Shown one piece after another: positions 60,794-63,410 of a stretch of 64,000 nucleotides of DNA. Origin of the DNA: a virus (Duplodnaviria > Heunggongvirae > Uroviricota > Caudoviricetes). Position 1 is the first letter of the stretch. Every line of letters begins with the position of its first letter. A program made the position numbers and the translations under genes. Below the pieces are notes generated by a model. The model was not told the DNA's origin and ran no database searches. It saw only the letters and a list, made by a program, of their open reading frames with translations. The DNA is taken from IMG/VR virus record IMGVR_UViG_3300009165_000005. One strand, 5' to 3'.

Positions 60794-62707
60794 ATGCCGA
60801 GAATCATCATCCTGTCTCTCATTCTACTCCTAACGTCCCCAACGCTGGCGGATGAGTGCACCAGCCCCATCTTTGATATGACAGGGAAGGTCACGGCTTC
60901 CGAGATCGAGCCCGTGCTACGCAAGATTGTGGATGATGGCGCTGATCCGGCCATGGTTAGAATCATCACCACCAACGAGATGAATCGGCAAGGGAACCTC
61001 GACAAGTACGCCTGGAACCTCCTAAGCCGATGCCCTTCGTGGCAATCCGCGGGGGGTCGGCTCAAAAACAACATCTTCCTGCTGATCCTCGAACCGAACG
61101 GTAAAGTGGCGGTTCAGTTCGCCAAAAAAGGCCCATTCCAGAACATTCTAACCCACGAAAAAATCGTGGATATTTCACAGGAAATGGGAGGACTCATCTC
61201 CAAGGGGGATCTGACGGGAGCAGCAAAGGCAGGACTCCTTCGAGCTCACACCCTGATCTCGGCCCCTGTCCGACCCTCAACTCCAGCACCGGTCACCATC
61301 GTCAATCACAATGAGAAGCCGGCTGATCTGAGTGGGTTCTTTTCGTTCTTGAAGTGGTTGCTCCTCCTAGCTGTTCTTGGGGGAGTTGTTTGGTTGTTCC
61401 TCCTCTGGCGCTCAGGCAAGACAAAGTGTCACGCAGCCCAACAGAAAGCTCAGAACGCAAAGAGTAACTGCACAACCCTGATTGATGGGTTCATTACTCA
61501 ACTGACCACTCTCAACGCCCTGATGGGTCCTCTCAAGACAAACATCAGCGCCATTGAGTTTGAGACCTTCCAGTCCAAACTCAATGGCATCAAAGCTCGT
61601 ATGGATTCGGCGAAAGGGCAATTTGCCAATCGTTCAGGGCTTGCCAATGATCCTGAATGTACAGGTCTCAGCAGCGAGTCCTATGCTGTAATGACCAACA
61701 CCTTTGAGAGGCTGTACAGCAACCTGGAACAAGTCTCAAACGATGCCAATAAGTTGGAACGATCCCTTCGAGAGATGGGTCGAACACGGGACTCAGCTCA
61801 ACCAGCTATCAACGAGTTGACCCGGGAGATCGAGTTGGCCACAACAACTATCAACGGGGAAACCACCCTGAAGACTGATGGTCCACGGGCTACACTCAAG
61901 AGAGCAATCGACCTCCTCGAGCTAGCAGAGGAGCACCTCATGGAGAAGAGCTTCCAGGCGGTGATCAGCGCTTGTCAGGAGGGGATGACTCTTGCTAAGA
62001 AGTCAGTTCAAGAGCTGAAGGGCCTGTCATCTCGTAAGCGATCGGTTCAGAATGCTATAAGTCTCCTTGATGCAGTTGACATCTCTGGGATACTTCCCAA
62101 GGTAGATGCAACCATTCTTGCTACTCGCCAAGCTTATGGGAACGGGGCGGTTTCGGATGCAGCTAATATCCGTGCGGCCCTCGTCGCCAAGCTCTCTGAA
62201 CGAAGGAGTGCCCTAGCGGCTGCCAAGAGTGCTTTCACTACCCAAAATTGGGTGGATGCCGAGCGTCAGATTGAGGTAGTCAAGAAAGTAGATGCTGACA
62301 TCAACTACAAGGTTGGTAGGATCGAGGATTTAGGTCTGGCAAGCATTCGAGGCCAACAAGCCGCTCAACAAGCTGCTCTCAGAGCTCAACAAGAAGCTGC
62401 TCGAAGGGCCTCCTACTCCTCCAAGTCTTCGGGACATTCTCATTCGCATCATACCCATGAGGATAGGGACTTGGGATTCGGAACTGGCATGGTGGTTGGA
62501 GGTCTCACGGGGCTAGCGGTAGGAGCCTCTTTGGAGCGAGAGGAGCGACGAAGTCGGAATCGAAATGACGATGATAATGGCCTCGTGTTTGGTGGTGAGT
62601 CAGTTCAAAGCTCCTCGAGCAACGATGAGGATCGCGGGTTCGGTGGTGAGTCAGTTCAAAGCACCTCGAGCAATGATGGTAGTGGATTCTCAAGTAACAA
62701 CGATTAG
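60794..62707 (+). CDS. TPM-domain membrane protein (signal peptide, TPM domain, TM, coiled coil, Gly/Ser/acidic repeat tail)
   Basis: RBS aaggaaag before the ATG. Signal peptide MPRIIILSLILLLTSPTLA. TPM-like segments DMTGKVTASEIEPVLRKI and GGRLKNNIFLLILEPNGKVAVQF. TM FLKWLLLLAVLGGVVWLFLLW. C-terminal repeats FGGESVQSxSSND. Confidence 0.55.
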   Translation: MPRIIILSLILLLTSPTLADECTSPIFDMTGKVTASEIEPVLRKIVDDGADPAMVRIITTNEMNRQGNLDKYAWNLLSRCPSWQSAGGRLKNNIFLLILEPNGKVAVQFAKKGPFQNILTHEKIVDISQEMGGLISKGDLTGAAKAGLLRAHTLISAPVRPSTPAPVTIVNHNEKPADLSGFFSFLKWLLLLAVLGGVVWLFLLWRSGKTKCHAAQQKAQNAKSNCTTLIDGFITQLTTLNALMGPLKTNISAIEFETFQSKLNGIKARMDSAKGQFANRSGLANDPECTGLSSESYAVMTNTFERLYSNLEQVSNDANKLERSLREMGRTRDSAQPAINELTREIELATTTINGETTLKTDGPRATLKRAIDLLELAEEHLMEKSFQAVISACQEGMTLAKKSVQELKGLSSRKRSVQNAISLLDAVDISGILPKVDATILATRQAYGNGAVSDAANIRAALVAKLSERRSALAAAKSAFTTQNWVDAERQIEVVKKVDADINYKVGRIEDLGLASIRGQQAAQQAALRAQQEAARRASYSSKSSGHSHSHHTHEDRDLGFGTGMVVGGLTGLAVGASLEREERRSRNRNDDDNGLVFGGESVQSSSSNDEDRGFGGESVQSTSSNDGSGFSSNND

Positions 62708-62717
62708 GACGTGAAGA

Positions 62718-63410
62718 ATGGCACTAGGTATTTTCGACAAGGTTTCTCTTCTGGTCAAGGCAACCGCCCATGATCTACTGGACCGCCAGATCGATGCAAA
62801 GTCCATCCCCGCGCATGAGCAACTCATCCGGGAGTTGGAGGCTGCTATCCGAAAAGAGTCCACGGAAACCATCAAGGCTGATGTGACTGCTAAGAACTTG
62901 AAGAATCAGATTGCATCCATTCAGGGTCAGATTGATGACTTCCTTGCAGCTATCCAAGCCAACATCGATGATGGGATCACAGAGAATGATCATGAACAAA
63001 TCCCAATGATGGAACACGTCGAAGAGTTGGAAGCCGAGATTGCGGACATCAAGGCTCAGGAAGCAGCGGCGACCCAAAACTTCCAACTCATGTCGACAAC
63101 CTTGGAGAAGCTCAAGCAACGTCACAAGACCATGGTCCAGGAGTTGGGTCAACTCCGACGGGCCGTGGGTCAAGCCACTGCAGATGAGAGTGCCCTCAAG
63201 ACCGTTCAGCGGTTGAAGGATCTCACGGAAGGGGTTGACTCGACTCACCTCGGGGGTGCCCTGGCCAATGCTCAGGCAAGGTCTCAGGTAGCTCGAGCTG
63301 AGCTCCAACAAGCTGTTGGCGAGATCAAGGATAGCCCAGAAGCCCTCCTAGCCAAGAATAAGGCAGCAGCTCGCATTGCTGCCATGAGAGCTGCCGCATC
63401 CGGCAAGTAA
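62718..63410 (+). CDS. pspA: PspA/IM30/Vipp1-family protein (ESCRT-III-like)
   Basis: MALGIFDKVSLLVKATAHDLLDRQIDAKS... parallels the PspA N-terminus [25 protein letters not shown]. Coiled-coil throughout; ~230 aa. Confidence 0.7.
   Translation: MALGIFDKVSLLVKATAHDLLDRQIDAKSIPAHEQLIRELEAAIRKESTETIKADVTAKNLKNQIASIQGQIDDFLAAIQANIDDGITENDHEQIPMMEHVEELEAEIADIKAQEAAATQNFQLMSTTLEKLKQRHKTMVQELGQLRRAVGQATADESALKTVQRLKDLTEGVDSTHLGGALANAQARSQVARAELQQAVGEIKDSPEALLAKNKAAARIAAMRAAASGK

What the first reader, a model, noticed from the sequence alone, without database searches (positions are those of the whole stretch)
60794..63410. Phage-encoded PspA/Vipp1 with an adjacent TPM-domain membrane protein
A PspA/IM30-family gene (ESCRT-III-like membrane remodeller) lies directly downstream of a secreted and membrane-anchored TPM-domain protein. 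This pairing mirrors bacterial PspA partner modules such as B. subtilis pspA-ydjGHI, where a TPM protein and a band-7 protein accompany PspA. An NfeD-flotillin (band-7/SPFH) pair sits ~7 kb upstream on the same strand. Together these look like a viral copy of a host membrane-stress or membrane-remodelling toolkit, which I am not aware of being described for phages. It could protect or remodel the host membrane during infection, lysis timing or virion assembly.
Basis: partly seen in the sequence, partly recalled or inferred. Interest (0 to 1): 0.75.

Follow-up and report, generated by a model that had tools for sequence, protein, structure and literature searches.

The report
Huge-phage PspA with TPM membrane anchor
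A very large bacteriophage carries its own diverged copy of a bacterial two-gene membrane-repair unit (a PspA/ESCRT-III-type protein plus its TPM-domain membrane anchor) and, a few kb away, a flotillin pair, so the virus probably looks after the host's inner membrane during infection; the unit is known from bacteria but has hardly been noticed in phages.

Summary
Neither protein hits its Pfam model directly.

- **PspA.** The 230-aa protein (62718-63410) is assigned to PspA/IM30 on three grounds: 9 of its 28 close homologs match PF04012 end to end, its predicted structure is a long helical hairpin whose best PDB matches are Vipp1, and it aligns end to end with a Pfam-positive bacterial PspA (hhalign E 9e-20).
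- **TPM anchor.** The 637-aa protein (60794-62707) reads as signal peptide, TPM domain, one TM helix, a helical cytoplasmic domain of about 320 aa, then a Ser/Gly/acidic tail. The TPM fold gives the top 11 PDB hits, and 73 of 86 profile-retrieved relatives carry PF04536.
- **Flotillin pair.** A YqiJ(NfeD-like)-flotillin pair lies at 52938-55559.
- **Genome.** The window looks like a huge phage: 38 tRNAs plus a tmRNA, RNA-repair genes, and relatives in IMG/VR on contigs up to 392-443 kb.
- **Conservation.** The TPM-PspA dyad is kept in every relative and is under purifying selection (dN/dS about 0.1). It is homologous over its whole length to a chromosomal dyad in a Gammaproteobacteria MAG.

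It is a phage-borne member of the PspA-TPM (YdjH-like) partner module. A membrane-maintenance role is inferred, not shown. Phage pspA-like genes have been mentioned only in passing.

The parts
60784..60788 (+). Shine-Dalgarno-like AAGGA, 5 nt before the ATG of the TPM-anchor gene
   Evidence: Sequence read directly. The upstream gene (UDG, 59884-60594) is on the opposite strand, so the 199-nt gap should hold the promoter. No convincing sigma-70 consensus was found there.
60794..62707 (+). Gene 1: 637-aa type I membrane protein, a YdjH/YgcG-like TPM anchor. Whole gene including the stop codon.
   Evidence: ORF and translation. 21 homologs at 43-98% identity. Alignment A2. Homologous over 502 columns to a family of 750-850-aa TPM proteins, including ones on bacterial chromosomes (hhalign prob 100, E 3e-68).
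60794..60850 (+). Signal peptide (aa 1-19, MPRIIILSLILLLTSPTLA / DEC)
   Evidence: Hydrophobic segment 1-22. A conserved A-x-A-like site before an invariant DEC in all homologs. This is a heuristic reading; no dedicated predictor was available.
60851..61282 (+). Periplasmic TPM domain (aa 20-163) with two invariant cysteines (C22, C80) and the invariant motif CPSWQSAGG.LK.NIF
   Evidence: AF2 model mda855e90137f, pLDDT 79, beta-alpha-beta-alpha-beta-beta-alpha-alpha. Foldseek PDB top 11 hits are all TPM domains: 2kpt, 3pvh/3ptj, 5anp, 8c7i, 2kw7, 2lt2, 4oa3, 6adq_J and 9h70. 73 of 86 profile-retrieved relatives carry PF04536. No direct Pfam or PDB sequence hit.
61334..61408 (+). Transmembrane helix (aa 181-205), preceded by the invariant juxtamembrane motif PVTIVNHNEKP.DLSG
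   Evidence: Kyte-Doolittle peak of 2.36 over aa 177-208. Lys/Arg-rich sequence follows the helix, which places the C-terminal part in the cytoplasm by the positive-inside rule (an inference). Conservation.
61421..62383 (+). Cytoplasmic alpha-helical domain (aa 210-530), the presumed docking surface for PspA
   Evidence: Conserved across phage and bacterial relatives. Not PspA-like itself (hhalign A2 vs A1, prob 0.4%). The docking role is inferred from the YdjH-PspA two-hybrid interaction in B. subtilis (PMC8581546).
62384..62704 (+). Low-complexity tail (aa 531-637): a His/Ser stretch, a Gly-rich hydrophobic stretch GFGTGMVVGGLTGLAVGA, and two FGGESVQS(S/T)SSND repeats. Net charge -7.
   Evidence: Composition analysis and alignment A2. 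Ravi et al. describe the same kind of tail for YdjH-type TPM proteins.
62718..63410 (+). Gene 2: 230-aa PspA/IM30-family (ESCRT-III-fold) protein, 10 nt after gene 1
   Evidence: hhalign to the Pfam-positive PspA of the bacterial dyad: prob 99.2, E 9e-20, 226 columns. dN/dS 0.10 against the 98% relative.
63424..63453 (+). Inverted repeat CCAGGGCAAG-N10-CTTGCCCTGG, 14 nt after the PspA stop. A probable transcript-end hairpin, with no T-run.
   Evidence: Sequence. The 60-nt fold is -22.7 kcal/mol. The consensus terminator scan does not call it. It is part of a 149-nt element present twice in L008.
52938..53573 (+). YqiJ-type (NfeD-like) inner-membrane protein, 211 aa
   Evidence: PF21001 YqiJ_N, 33.3 bits against a cut-off of 23. 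Hydrophobic segments at aa 8-32 and 61-129. PF01957 was not hit.
53592..55559 (+). Flotillin/YqiK-type SPFH protein, 655 aa, 18 nt after the YqiJ-like gene
   Evidence: PF01145, 57.8 bits. N-terminal membrane hairpin. 697 homologs, with about 52% identity to Myxococcota MAG SPFH proteins. It shares the contig lengths 94939, 435302, 107794, 90361 and 25901 with PspA and/or the TPM anchor.
55592..55864 (+). 90-aa ORF: a truncated paralog of the membrane part of the YqiJ-like protein
   Evidence: BLASTP aa 9-86 against aa 65-142 of the YqiJ-like protein: 55% identity, E 2.5e-25. No Pfam hit.

Best explanation
The two genes at 60794-63410 form a bicistronic unit in the genome of a huge (several-hundred-kb) phage. 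The unit is a diverged copy of a bacterial two-gene module.

**Gene 1** makes a type I inner-membrane protein. A cleaved signal peptide is followed by a TPM domain in the periplasm, one TM helix, a helical domain of about 320 aa in the cytoplasm and a disordered tail.

**Gene 2** makes a soluble PspA/IM30 protein with the ESCRT-III-type helical hairpin.

**Proposed mechanism.** As YdjH does for PspA in B. subtilis, the anchor recruits and concentrates the phage PspA at the host inner membrane. There PspA polymerises on the inner leaflet and seals or stabilises stressed membrane. This would keep the proton-motive force and prevent premature leakage during the long infection cycle of a very large phage. 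The YqiJ-flotillin pair 5-8 kb upstream, encoded as a separate unit, probably supplies an SPFH scaffold that works alongside.

**Shown:** gene structure, domain and fold assignments, homology of both genes to a bacterial chromosomal dyad, strict conservation of the pairing, purifying selection, and a phage-type genome context.

**Inferred:** physical interaction of the two proteins, the membrane-protective role, the timing of expression, and cooperation with the flotillin pair.
For: **PspA identity.**
- PF04012 hits in 9 of 28 homologs, collinear over profile positions 1-216 of 220.
- Hairpin model with Vipp1 as the seven best PDB matches.
- hhalign E 9e-20 and 1.6e-19 to the 233-aa partners in L010 and L011. 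The L010 protein scores 36.1 bits on PF04012.

**TPM identity.**

**Same architecture as the bacterial family.** hhalign E 3e-68 over 502 columns.

**Conservation of the dyad.**
- Ten shared contig lengths between the PspA and TPM homolog lists.
- Adjacency in L001-L008 and in the 435-kb and 128-kb contigs.
- Adjacency also in 4 of 4 distant relatives, one of them on a chromosome with rpsP, trmD, smc and clpP from a Gammaproteobacteria MAG.

**Selection.** dN/dS 0.08-0.14.

**Operon signals.** 10-nt spacing, ribosome-binding sites and a hairpin after the stop codon.

**Phage context.**
- 38 tRNAs and a tmRNA.
- NrdD, clamp loader, GroEL, RtcB, Ro60, Tpt1, peptide deformylase, HNH endonucleases and a tail-fibre-like gene.
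- Three relatives are IMG/VR viral contigs, one of 392 kb.
- Tailspike-like K1-lyase genes next to the dyad in the 435-kb contig.
- No relative found among 185,579 species genomes by pattern scan.

**Functional analogy.** YdjH interacts with PspA and is needed for its membrane foci (PMC8581546). TPM and band-7 proteins are recurrent PspA partners (PMC11237479).

**Precedent for activity.** A pspA-like gene of Jug phages is transcribed in vivo (PMC12880540).

**Wider pattern.** The cultured 469-kb phage Phosso carries a yqiJ-flotillin-xpaC-telA gene row, so huge phages do carry envelope-stress genes.
Against: - The window proteins themselves do not reach any Pfam threshold. Profile A1 finds no PspA or Vipp1 chain in the PDB by sequence.
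- The Foldseek E-values for PspA are modest (1.5e-3 to 1.8e-2), and generic hairpin proteins follow closely.
- The PspA model is confident only for the hairpin. Residues 1-25 and 172-216 have pLDDT below 50.
- The N-terminal helix is only moderately amphipathic: 10% of shuffles reach its hydrophobic moment.
- No capsid or terminase gene lies in the window, so the phage call is indirect.
- The flotillin pair is not adjacent in distant relatives.
- In the 98% relative L008 the anchor gene carries a +1 frameshift. This is either an assembly error or a sign that the gene is dispensable.
- There is no experimental or expression evidence for this lineage.
Confidence: 0.6

Rival explanations
1. Anti-defence role. 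The phage PspA and its anchor neutralise host abortive-infection effectors that kill by perforating or depolarising the inner membrane. Alternatively the phage PspA acts as a decoy platform for host immune enzymes that dock on PspA.
For: PspA seals membrane lesions (general knowledge of the family). In B. subtilis expressing a B. cereus CBASS operon, the cyclase is stored conjugated to PspA and released on infection (bioRxiv 10.1101/2023.09.29.560134). Huge phages carry many counter-defence genes. The dyad sits among variable accessory genes, next to a P22-antirepressor-like gene and TnpB in L008.
Against: No match to any PADLOC defence family beyond weak coiled-coil noise. No known anti-defence protein has this architecture. 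The same dyad sits among housekeeping genes in a bacterial chromosome, which points to a general membrane function.
Confidence: 0.12
2. Membrane building rather than repair. A Vipp1-like activity, with the flotillin scaffold, makes or shapes intracellular membranes such as vesicles, replication compartments or internal virion lipid.
For: The best structural matches are Vipp1, the thylakoid-biogenesis paralog. A flotillin pair occurs on at least five contigs that also carry the anchor and/or the PspA gene. Some jumbo phages are known to form membrane-bound early compartments (general knowledge).
Against: Vipp1 tops the list simply because it has the most full-length solved structures. The protein lacks the C-terminal extension typical of Vipp1, at 230 aa against about 260 (my knowledge of the family). 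No lipid-synthesis genes or phage-nucleus markers (chimallin) were seen in the window.
Confidence: 0.1
3. Control of lysis timing or superinfection exclusion. The membrane anchor and PspA delay holin-triggered collapse or block DNA entry by competing phages.
For: Both products act at the inner membrane. PspA counteracts proton leakage, which is what holins cause (general knowledge). A periplasmic domain could sense or block incoming phage components.
Against: No holin, endolysin or spanin genes were recognised next to the dyad. The bacterial orthologous dyad has no link to lysis. No similarity to known exclusion proteins.
Confidence: 0.1
4. Not a phage gene at all. The window would be bacterial chromosome, a prophage-flanking region or another giant extrachromosomal element mis-called as viral, and the module would be ordinary host PSP machinery.
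For: No capsid, portal or terminase gene was identified in the 64 kb. The one 'portal' PHROG hit is weak and unassigned. Contigs of 435-465 kb are also compatible with small bacterial contigs. The flotillin is 52% identical to Myxococcota proteins.
Against: 38 tRNAs plus a tmRNA and a suppressor tRNA packed in 18 kb among small ORFs. Phage-type RNA-repair and replication genes and many HNH endonucleases. A tail-fibre PHROG hit. Three relatives in IMG/VR. K1-lyase tailspike genes beside the dyad. No ribosomal or other housekeeping genes. This PspA subfamily was not found in 185,579 species genomes.
Confidence: 0.05
5. Generic coiled-coil proteins with no PspA or TPM relationship, meaning a false positive of remote-homology methods.
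For: No direct Pfam hits. Many weak coiled-coil hits. Modest Foldseek E-values for PspA.
Against: End-to-end collinear PF04012 matches in homologs, two above the gathering score. hhalign controls with other helical proteins give prob below 1%. The TPM domain is an alpha/beta fold, not a coiled coil, with an exclusive set of TPM hits and 73 of 86 Pfam-positive relatives. The pairing of the two families is reproduced in Pfam-positive bacterial loci.
Confidence: 0.03

Closest known systems
Bacterial dyad of a long TPM-TM-helical protein (YgcG-like, 750-850 aa) followed by a 233-aa PspA, e.g. contig CAYOXM010000005.1 of an uncultured Gammaproteobacteria MAG (L010/L012)
   Same: Same gene order and spacing. 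The same architecture in gene 1: signal peptide, TPM domain with the C...C.SWQ..GG.KNN motif, TM helix, helical cytoplasmic domain and Gly/Ser tail (hhalign E 3e-68). The same PspA subfamily, with the N-terminal H.LLD..ID..S..A..Q.IR.LE motif and the DD.D.SND hairpin tip (hhalign E 9e-20).
   Different: The phage anchor is 100-200 aa shorter in the cytoplasmic domain. Both phage proteins have drifted below Pfam detection (24-28% identity in the profile alignments). The phage copy sits on a phage genome among accessory genes, not next to rpsP and trmD. As far as I could find, this bacterial dyad has not been studied experimentally.
B. subtilis pspA-ydjGHI operon (PspA, YdjG zinc-ribbon membrane protein, YdjH TPM membrane protein, YdjI SPFH protein)
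   Same: PspA is paired with a membrane protein made of a TPM domain plus a low-complexity or coiled-coil region, and an SPFH protein belongs to the same functional set. YdjH binds PspA and is needed for its membrane foci (PMC8581546, PMC11237479).
   Different: The gene order is reversed, with the anchor first. There is no YdjG-like zinc-ribbon protein. The SPFH protein is a membrane-anchored flotillin/YqiK with a YqiJ partner in a separate unit 5-8 kb away, not a soluble YdjI in the operon. The host envelope is probably Gram-negative, judging from the signal peptide, the periplasmic cysteines and the gammaproteobacterial relatives.
E. coli yqiJK / B. subtilis yuaFG (NfeD-like protein plus flotillin operons)
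   Same: 52938-55559 has the same two-gene arrangement and Pfam families (YqiJ_N, Band_7). Ravi et al. propose that such operons work with a PspA encoded elsewhere.
   Different: It is phage-encoded. An extra truncated YqiJ-like paralog follows the flotillin gene. The C-terminal OB domain and the Flot domain were not detected by Pfam in the window proteins.
pspA-like genes noted in phage genomes (Jug phages of the human gut; Ralstonia jumbo phage RsoM2USA ORF54) and the envelope-stress gene row of Sinorhizobium phage Phosso
   Same: These are huge or jumbo phages that carry PSP, flotillin, TelA or TerD-type envelope-stress genes. The Jug pspA-like gene is transcribed.
   Different: In those phages the partners are terD or telA/xpaC, and no TPM anchor is reported. 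No sequence match between this PspA and any record of the 50,697-genome phage collection. None of those papers analyses the genes.
Vipp1/IM30 of cyanobacteria and chloroplasts, and eukaryotic/archaeal ESCRT-III
   Same: The predicted fold, a long alpha1/alpha2+3 hairpin followed by shorter helices. Vipp1 structures are the top PDB matches.
   Different: 14-18% identity. No Vipp1-type C-terminal extension. No Vps4-like ATPase nearby. Polymer formation untested.

Membership tests
PspA/IM30 (PF04012) | Match to the Pfam PspA_IM30 profile at or above the gathering score (33.9 bits) | tested here: not met
   The window protein has no PF04012 hit among the 25 best families listed at E<=10, all with E<=0.75. 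Homologs at 52-60% identity do hit it: 9 of 28, best 41.4 bits and 36.4 bits (above the cut-off), collinear over profile 1-216 of 220. Membership is therefore transitive, not direct.
PspA/IM30 (PF04012) | Homology to a protein that is itself a Pfam-positive PspA, over the full length | tested here: met
   hhalign of A1 against the L010 233-aa protein (PF04012, 36.1 bits): prob 99.2, E 9e-20, 226 columns. BLASTP of the pair gives E 5e-8. Controls with unrelated helical proteins give prob below 1%.
PspA/IM30 (PF04012) | ESCRT-III-type fold: a long alpha1/alpha2+3 helical hairpin followed by alpha4 and alpha5 | tested here: met
   AF2 model: H21-84, a 3-residue turn, H88-172, then H181-202 and H207-228. 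pLDDT is 85-95 over most of the hairpin (about residues 31-140), falls to 60-80 in its last 30 residues and is low elsewhere. The seven best Foldseek PDB hits are Vipp1, aligned over 198-234 columns at E 1.5e-3 to 1.8e-2.
PspA/IM30 (PF04012) | N-terminal amphipathic helix (alpha0) for membrane binding | tested here: inconclusive
   Residues 2-21 (ALGIFDKVSLLVKATAHDLL) resemble alpha0 and are conserved. The hydrophobic moment of 0.31 is reached by 10% of shuffles, and pLDDT there is below 50.
PspA/IM30 (PF04012) | Self-assembly into rings or rods on membranes | not testable with these tools
   This needs purification with EM, or a multimer prediction, which was not available.
TPM domain (PF04536) | Match to the Pfam TPM_phosphatase profile | tested here: not met
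   No hit for the full protein, the N-terminal 235 aa, or any of 12 family members, even at E<=10. No PDB sequence hit with the profile. However, 73 of 86 proteins retrieved by the domain profile (E<=1e-5) carry PF04536, best 1.7e-16.
TPM domain (PF04536) | TPM fold (Rossmann-like beta-alpha-beta-alpha-beta-beta-alpha-alpha sandwich) | tested here: met
   AF2 model with pLDDT 79 and pTM 0.77. The top 11 Foldseek PDB hits are all TPM-domain proteins (cg2496, AtTLP18.3, BA41, BA42, Psb32, PG_0361 and others), at prob 0.99-1.0 and TM 0.52-0.72. The next hit has prob 0.16.
YdjH/YgcG-type PspA anchor | Architecture: N-terminal signal or TM segment, extracytoplasmic TPM domain, TM helix, then a coiled-coil or low-complexity cytoplasmic region | tested here: met
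   Hydropathy and composition, alignment A2. The description of YdjH in PMC11237479 matches.
YdjH/YgcG-type PspA anchor | Conserved adjacency to a pspA gene | tested here: met
   Adjacent in the window, in L001-L008, in the 435-kb and 128-kb contigs, and in 4 of 4 distant relatives.
YdjH/YgcG-type PspA anchor | Physical interaction with PspA and a requirement for PspA membrane foci | not testable with these tools
   Shown only for B. subtilis YdjH (PMC8581546).
B. subtilis-type pspA-ydjGHI operon | Four-gene operon with a YdjG zinc-ribbon membrane protein and a soluble SPFH protein YdjI downstream of pspA | tested here: not met
   Only two genes, with the anchor first. No zinc-ribbon protein. 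The SPFH gene lies in a separate unit 5 kb upstream.
SPFH/flotillin (PF01145) with NfeD-like partner | Band_7 domain protein preceded by an NfeD/YqiJ-family membrane protein in one operon | tested here: met
   PF01145, 57.8 bits against a cut-off of 23.6. PF21001 YqiJ_N, 33.3 bits against 23. An 18-nt gap on the same strand. PF01957 (NfeD proper) and PF15975 (Flot) were not detected.
Known anti-phage defence systems (PADLOC-DB 2.0) | Match of any module protein to a defence-system model | tested here: not met
   Only weak coiled-coil matches to LmuB and PbeC (E 2e-4 to 5e-3).

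The most novel reading that the evidence does not exclude
A clade of huge phages runs its own ESCRT-III-type membrane system: PspA, a dedicated TPM receptor and a flotillin scaffold. The phage would use it actively during infection, to keep the host inner membrane sealed against the host's membrane-perforating suicide defences or against its own holins, or to shape internal membranes. 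That would be the first virus-encoded PspA/ESCRT-III machinery with a demonstrated role in a bacterial infection cycle.
Probability: 0.2. Interest if true: 0.8.

Novelty: new member of a known kind. Interest (0 to 1): 0.5.

Why it matters
PspA was named after a response to phage. Here a phage appears to bring its own PspA together with the membrane receptor that the bacterial protein needs.

If the module is active, very large phages with long infection cycles do more than exploit the host envelope. They invest in maintaining it, with the same ESCRT-III-like tool kit that cells use.

The finding also brings to light an apparently unstudied bacterial two-gene unit: a long TPM-TM-helical protein followed by a 233-aa PspA. 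It seems to be the Gram-negative counterpart of YdjH-PspA.

Practically, the phage proteins are a compact, strongly co-evolving pair. They could be used to map the anchor-PspA interface, and to test whether PspA can protect against membrane-targeting abortive-infection effectors.

Tried and rejected
1. Direct Pfam, PHROG and PADLOC scans of both proteins gave only coiled-coil noise such as syntaxin, SbcC and LmuB.
2. phmmer and profile searches of PspA and of the TPM domain against PDB sequences gave nothing relevant.
3. I tested whether the cytoplasmic domain of the anchor is itself PspA-like. It is not: hhalign prob 0.4%.
4. I tested whether the 220-aa gene after the Phosso flotillin is a PspA. 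It is not: it is XpaC, PF10112.
5. Pattern scans for the flotillin in IMG/VR and for the PspA family in the 185,579 species genomes found nothing. This method is insensitive, so the negatives are weak.
A single-protein scan found only the MAG already known.
7. tblastn of this PspA, of a relative and of the bacterial partner against 50,697 phage genomes gave no match, or one weak match at 29% identity in an unannotated gut phage contig, MT835668.
8. BFVD fold search found no named viral PspA. The top hit is an uncharacterised 231-aa Myoviridae protein.
9. The N-terminal amphipathicity test was inconclusive.
10. The sigma-70 promoter scan found nothing convincing upstream of gene 1.
11. The 214-223-aa gene that follows PspA in distant relatives has no family match and is absent from the window lineage, so I did not count it as part of the module.

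Full report
**1. What is at the coordinates**

ORF listing shows two co-directional genes. The first is 60794-62707 (637 aa from the ATG). A TTG at 60698 would add 32 residues, but all homologs start at the ATG, which has AAGGA 5 nt upstream. The second is 62718-63410 (230 aa), only 10 nt downstream.

The upstream neighbour is a uracil-DNA glycosylase on the other strand (59884-60594, PF03167). A 10-bp-stem inverted repeat follows the PspA stop at 63424-63453. So in this lineage the pair looks like a self-contained bicistronic unit.

Independent gene calls on four metagenome contigs carrying the identical PspA give the same two genes.

**2. Direct family tests fail, deeper tests succeed**

Pfam scans of both proteins gave no PF04012 or PF04536 match, only weak coiled-coil hits. 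PF04536 was absent even at E<=10, and PF04012 was not among the 25 best families listed. PHROGs and PADLOC gave nothing specific. PDB sequence searches with single sequences and with profiles gave nothing relevant.

*The 230-aa protein.*
- The big protein database returned 32 homologs.
- Scanned one by one, 9 of the 28 aligned sequences (27 full-length homologs plus the window protein) match PF04012, with a best E of 1.6e-10.
- The matches run end to end (protein 4-225 to profile 1-216 of 220), and two exceed the gathering score. These homologs are 52-60% identical to the window protein.
- An AlphaFold model built on the family alignment shows a long hairpin, H21-84 and H88-172, with pLDDT 85-95 over most of it. 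Two shorter, low-confidence helices follow.
- Against the PDB, the seven best Foldseek matches are all Vipp1 polymers aligned over nearly the full length. The E-values are modest (1.5e-3 to 1.8e-2), and generic hairpins (YscO, the PI3K iSH2 domain) come next.

*The first 144 mature residues of the 637-aa protein.*
- The AlphaFold model (pLDDT 79, pTM 0.77) is an alpha/beta sandwich.
- Its top eleven PDB matches are exclusively TPM-domain proteins, at probability 0.99-1.0 and TM 0.52-0.72. They include cg2496, AtTLP18.3, BA41/BA42, Psb32 and PG_0361. After them the probability drops to 0.16.
- A profile of the domain, searched against 1.84 billion representative proteins, found 218 relatives.
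- Of the 86 I scanned, 73 carry PF04536, best 1.7e-16.

Both domain assignments are therefore supported by a sequence bridge and by fold.

**3. Architecture of the anchor**

Hydropathy, composition and the family alignment give the following layout:

| Residues | Feature |
|---|---|
| 1-19 | Signal peptide, ...PTLA/DEC |
| 20-163 | TPM domain, with two invariant cysteines and the invariant motif CPSWQSAGG.LK.NIF |
| juxtamembrane | Invariant stretch PVTIVNHNEKP.DLSG |
| 181-205 | One TM helix, followed by Lys/Arg |
| about 210-530 | Conserved helical domain, so cytoplasmic |
| 531-637 | His/Ser, Gly-rich and acidic Ser-rich tail with two FGGESVQS repeats |

[quoted passage not shown] The cytoplasmic domain is not itself PspA-like (hhalign prob 0.4%).

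**4. The pairing is the conserved feature**

- The homolog lists of the two proteins share ten contig lengths: 94939, 105261, 435302, 36576, 5901, 14573, 127974, 442082, 225778 and 9527.
- In every locus I could read, the anchor gene lies directly before the PspA gene. This covers L001-L008 and the gene tables of the 435-kb and 128-kb contigs.
- The more distant relatives found with the TPM profile are mostly 750-850 aa. In four of four that I looked up, a 233-aa gene follows immediately. Two of these have PF04012 on record, and I confirmed one at 36.1 bits.
- Profile-profile comparison shows that the phage anchor family and this longer family are homologous over 502 columns, including the TM helix and the cytoplasmic domain (prob 100, E 3e-68).
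- The phage PspA family aligns end to end with the 233-aa partners (prob 99.2, E 9e-20 and 1.6e-19).
- One of these loci (L010/L012) is a contig of an uncultured Gammaproteobacteria MAG. There the dyad sits between rpsP/khpA/trmD and smc/clpP, which is plainly a chromosome.

The window therefore holds a diverged copy of a bacterial two-gene module, not a chance juxtaposition. The PspA gene is under purifying selection: dN/dS is 0.10 against the 98% relative and 0.08-0.14 against more distant ones.

**5. The flotillin pair**

The gene at 52938-53573 matches YqiJ_N (PF21001), and 53592-55559 matches Band_7 (PF01145). They are 18 nt apart on the + strand. A 90-aa ORF after the flotillin is a truncated paralog of the YqiJ-like membrane part (55% identity, E 2.5e-25).

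The pair is separated from the dyad by 5.2 kb. That stretch holds an HD phosphohydrolase, a tail-fibre-like gene on the other strand, unknown ORFs and the UDG. So it is a separate unit.

In distant relatives no flotillin lies within 10 kb upstream of the dyad. However, flotillin orthologs share the contig lengths 94939, 435302, 107794, 90361 and 25901 with PspA and/or the anchor. Co-occurrence at genome level is therefore real for several lineages and unknown for the rest.

The flotillin is much less diverged from cellular proteins than the dyad is, at about 52% identity to Myxococcota MAG SPFH proteins.

**6. Is it a phage?**

The window carries 38 tRNA genes, a tmRNA (Rfam 121 bits) and a CTA-anticodon suppressor tRNA. 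It also carries the following:
- replication and nucleotide metabolism: NrdD, clamp-loader subunits, dCTP deaminase, a DNA methylase;
- RNA repair: RtcB, Ro60/TROVE, an RNA 2'-phosphotransferase;
- translation, protein folding and transcription: GroEL, peptide deformylase, a sigma-factor-like protein;
- mobile and structural: several PHROG families annotated as HNH endonuclease (from how many ORFs is not resolved), and a tail-fibre-like protein.

No housekeeping operons were seen. Three relatives of the dyad are IMG/VR viral contigs, one of 392 kb. Others lie on contigs of 435-465 kb, with K1-lyase tailspike genes next to the dyad in one. The PspA subfamily was not found in 185,579 species genomes, although the method is pattern-based and insensitive.

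I did not find a capsid or terminase gene in these 64 kb. The call 'huge phage' is strong but indirect.

**7. Mechanism**

In B. subtilis, PspA foci require the membrane proteins YdjG and YdjH and the SPFH protein YdjI. YdjH binds PspA and YdjI and is regarded as their membrane anchor (PMC8581546). TPM and band-7 proteins are recurrent PspA partners, and YqiJ/YuaF-flotillin operons are thought to work with PspA encoded elsewhere (PMC11237479).

By analogy, I propose that the phage anchor recruits the phage PspA to the host inner membrane. There PspA polymerises and keeps the membrane tight and energised through a long infection. The flotillin pair would act as an accessory scaffold.

Shown are the anatomy, the homology, the conserved pairing, the selection and the phage context. 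The interaction and the physiological role are inferred.

The rival explanations are:
- protection against membrane-perforating abortive-infection effectors, or decoying of PspA-docked immune enzymes;
- building of internal membranes;
- control of lysis timing or superinfection exclusion;
- mis-assignment of a bacterial fragment.

None of the first three is excluded. The last is unlikely.

**8. Comparison with what is known, and novelty**

The module type, PspA plus a TPM membrane protein with SPFH proteins as further partners, is already described for bacteria.

Phage-encoded pspA-like genes have been listed twice, without analysis. One sits next to terD in Jug phages and is transcribed in vivo (PMC12880540). 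The other is ORF54 of the Ralstonia jumbo phage RsoM2USA (PMC8504454). A cultured 469-kb Sinorhizobium phage, Phosso, carries a yqiJ-flotillin-xpaC-telA gene row.

Two broad reviews of jumbo phages do not mention PspA, SPFH, TPM or NfeD. This PspA finds no match in 50,697 phage genomes, and its Pfam-positive relative P0027 finds only one weak match, at 29% identity, in an unannotated gut phage contig. BFVD holds no named viral PspA.

I therefore file this as a new, phage-borne member of a known kind of module. The added observation is that its true bacterial counterpart is an apparently unstudied Gram-negative dyad rather than the ydj operon.

**9. Verdict**

Interest is moderate (0.5): it is an appealing, testable case of a virus carrying the 'phage shock' effector and its receptor, but the parts are known, the function is inferred, and huge phages are already known to hoard host-like genes.

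Noticed in passing
window 14842-32679 (- strand) and 46343-46416: An array of 37 tRNA genes and a tmRNA (tag ANDNAIAEAA, Rfam 121 bits) is interspersed with small ORFs. A separate CTA-anticodon (amber-suppressor, called 'Pyl' by ARAGORN) tRNA lies at 46.3 kb. This is typical of huge phages and hints at stop-codon reassignment or suppression.
   Followed up: partly
window 63712-64000 and 21392-21678: The last 289 nt of the window are 97.6% identical to a stretch inside a roughly 750-nt ORF-poor gap near tRNA-Asp, and no Rfam family matches either copy. Four metagenome contigs carrying the identical PspA gene end either inside the copy after PspA (three of them) or at its start (L007). The repeat therefore probably breaks the assemblies. 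Its nature (mobile element, ncRNA or recombination site) is unknown.
   Followed up: partly
window 63435-63583; L008 10694-10870 and 16691-16838: A 149-nt element that includes the hairpin right after the PspA stop occurs twice in the 98% relative L008. Synteny between the window and L008 ends at 63590. In L008 the downstream genes are an R2K ATP-grasp protein, a P22-antirepressor-like protein, TnpB (Cas12f-like) and a DDE transposase. The dyad sits at the edge of a variable, mobile-element-rich region.
   Followed up: partly
L008 about 8405 (gene nt 330 of the anchor ortholog): One extra A in an A6 run (GCAAAAAAGGGC) frameshifts the TPM domain in the 94.9-kb relative, so the gene was called as 507 aa. 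Four other contigs have the intact 637-aa gene. This is either a homopolymer assembly error or strain-level inactivation.
   Followed up: partly
window 55592-55864 (+): A 90-aa ORF directly after the flotillin gene is a truncated duplicate of the membrane part of the YqiJ-like protein (55% identity over 78 aa).
   Followed up: yes
window 7271-14241 and 44023-45609 (- strand): An RNA-repair and quality-control gene set: RtcB ligase (10447-11850), a Ro60/TROVE-vWA protein (44023-45609) and a VWA protein (12499-14241), with GroEL at 7271-8911. The pooled PHROG scan also found an RNA 2'-phosphotransferase and a peptide deformylase somewhere among the remaining ORFs. That scan does not say which ORF matched.
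   Followed up: partly
window 47983-51131 (+): A run of similar-sized ORFs (168-211 aa). At least two of them (49407-49973 and 50496-51131) share sequence blocks such as LLH.E.LG.RG.VYVAA.AARRACT.TE and Ala/Trp-rich repeats, suggesting a paralogous gene family of unknown function.
   Followed up: no
L002 10720-11364; the same position in the 435-kb and 128-kb contigs: In more distant relatives a 214-223-aa gene with an internal duplication (two ...F..GWYW(L/I)A... halves) directly follows PspA. It has no Pfam or PADLOC match and is absent from the window lineage.
   Followed up: partly
L013 (Sinorhizobium phage Phosso PV764938, 355001-359181): A cultured 469-kb phage encodes a contiguous row of a YqiJ-like protein (PF21001 plus PF07290), flotillin (Band_7 plus Flot), XpaC (PF10112) and TelA (PF05816). 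It is annotated only as 'hypothetical', 'SPFH' and 'toxic anion resistance'. This could serve as an experimental system for phage envelope-stress genes.
   Followed up: partly
window 56879-57721 (-) and 58113-58847 (-): A tail-fibre-like N-terminal domain protein (PHROG 38058, E 3.6e-9) and a protein with a weak DUF6527/PHROG 33338 C-terminus lie between the flotillin pair and the dyad. This region is only 85% identical to L008, against 97-99% in the flanks, so it is a local hot spot of divergence.
   Followed up: no
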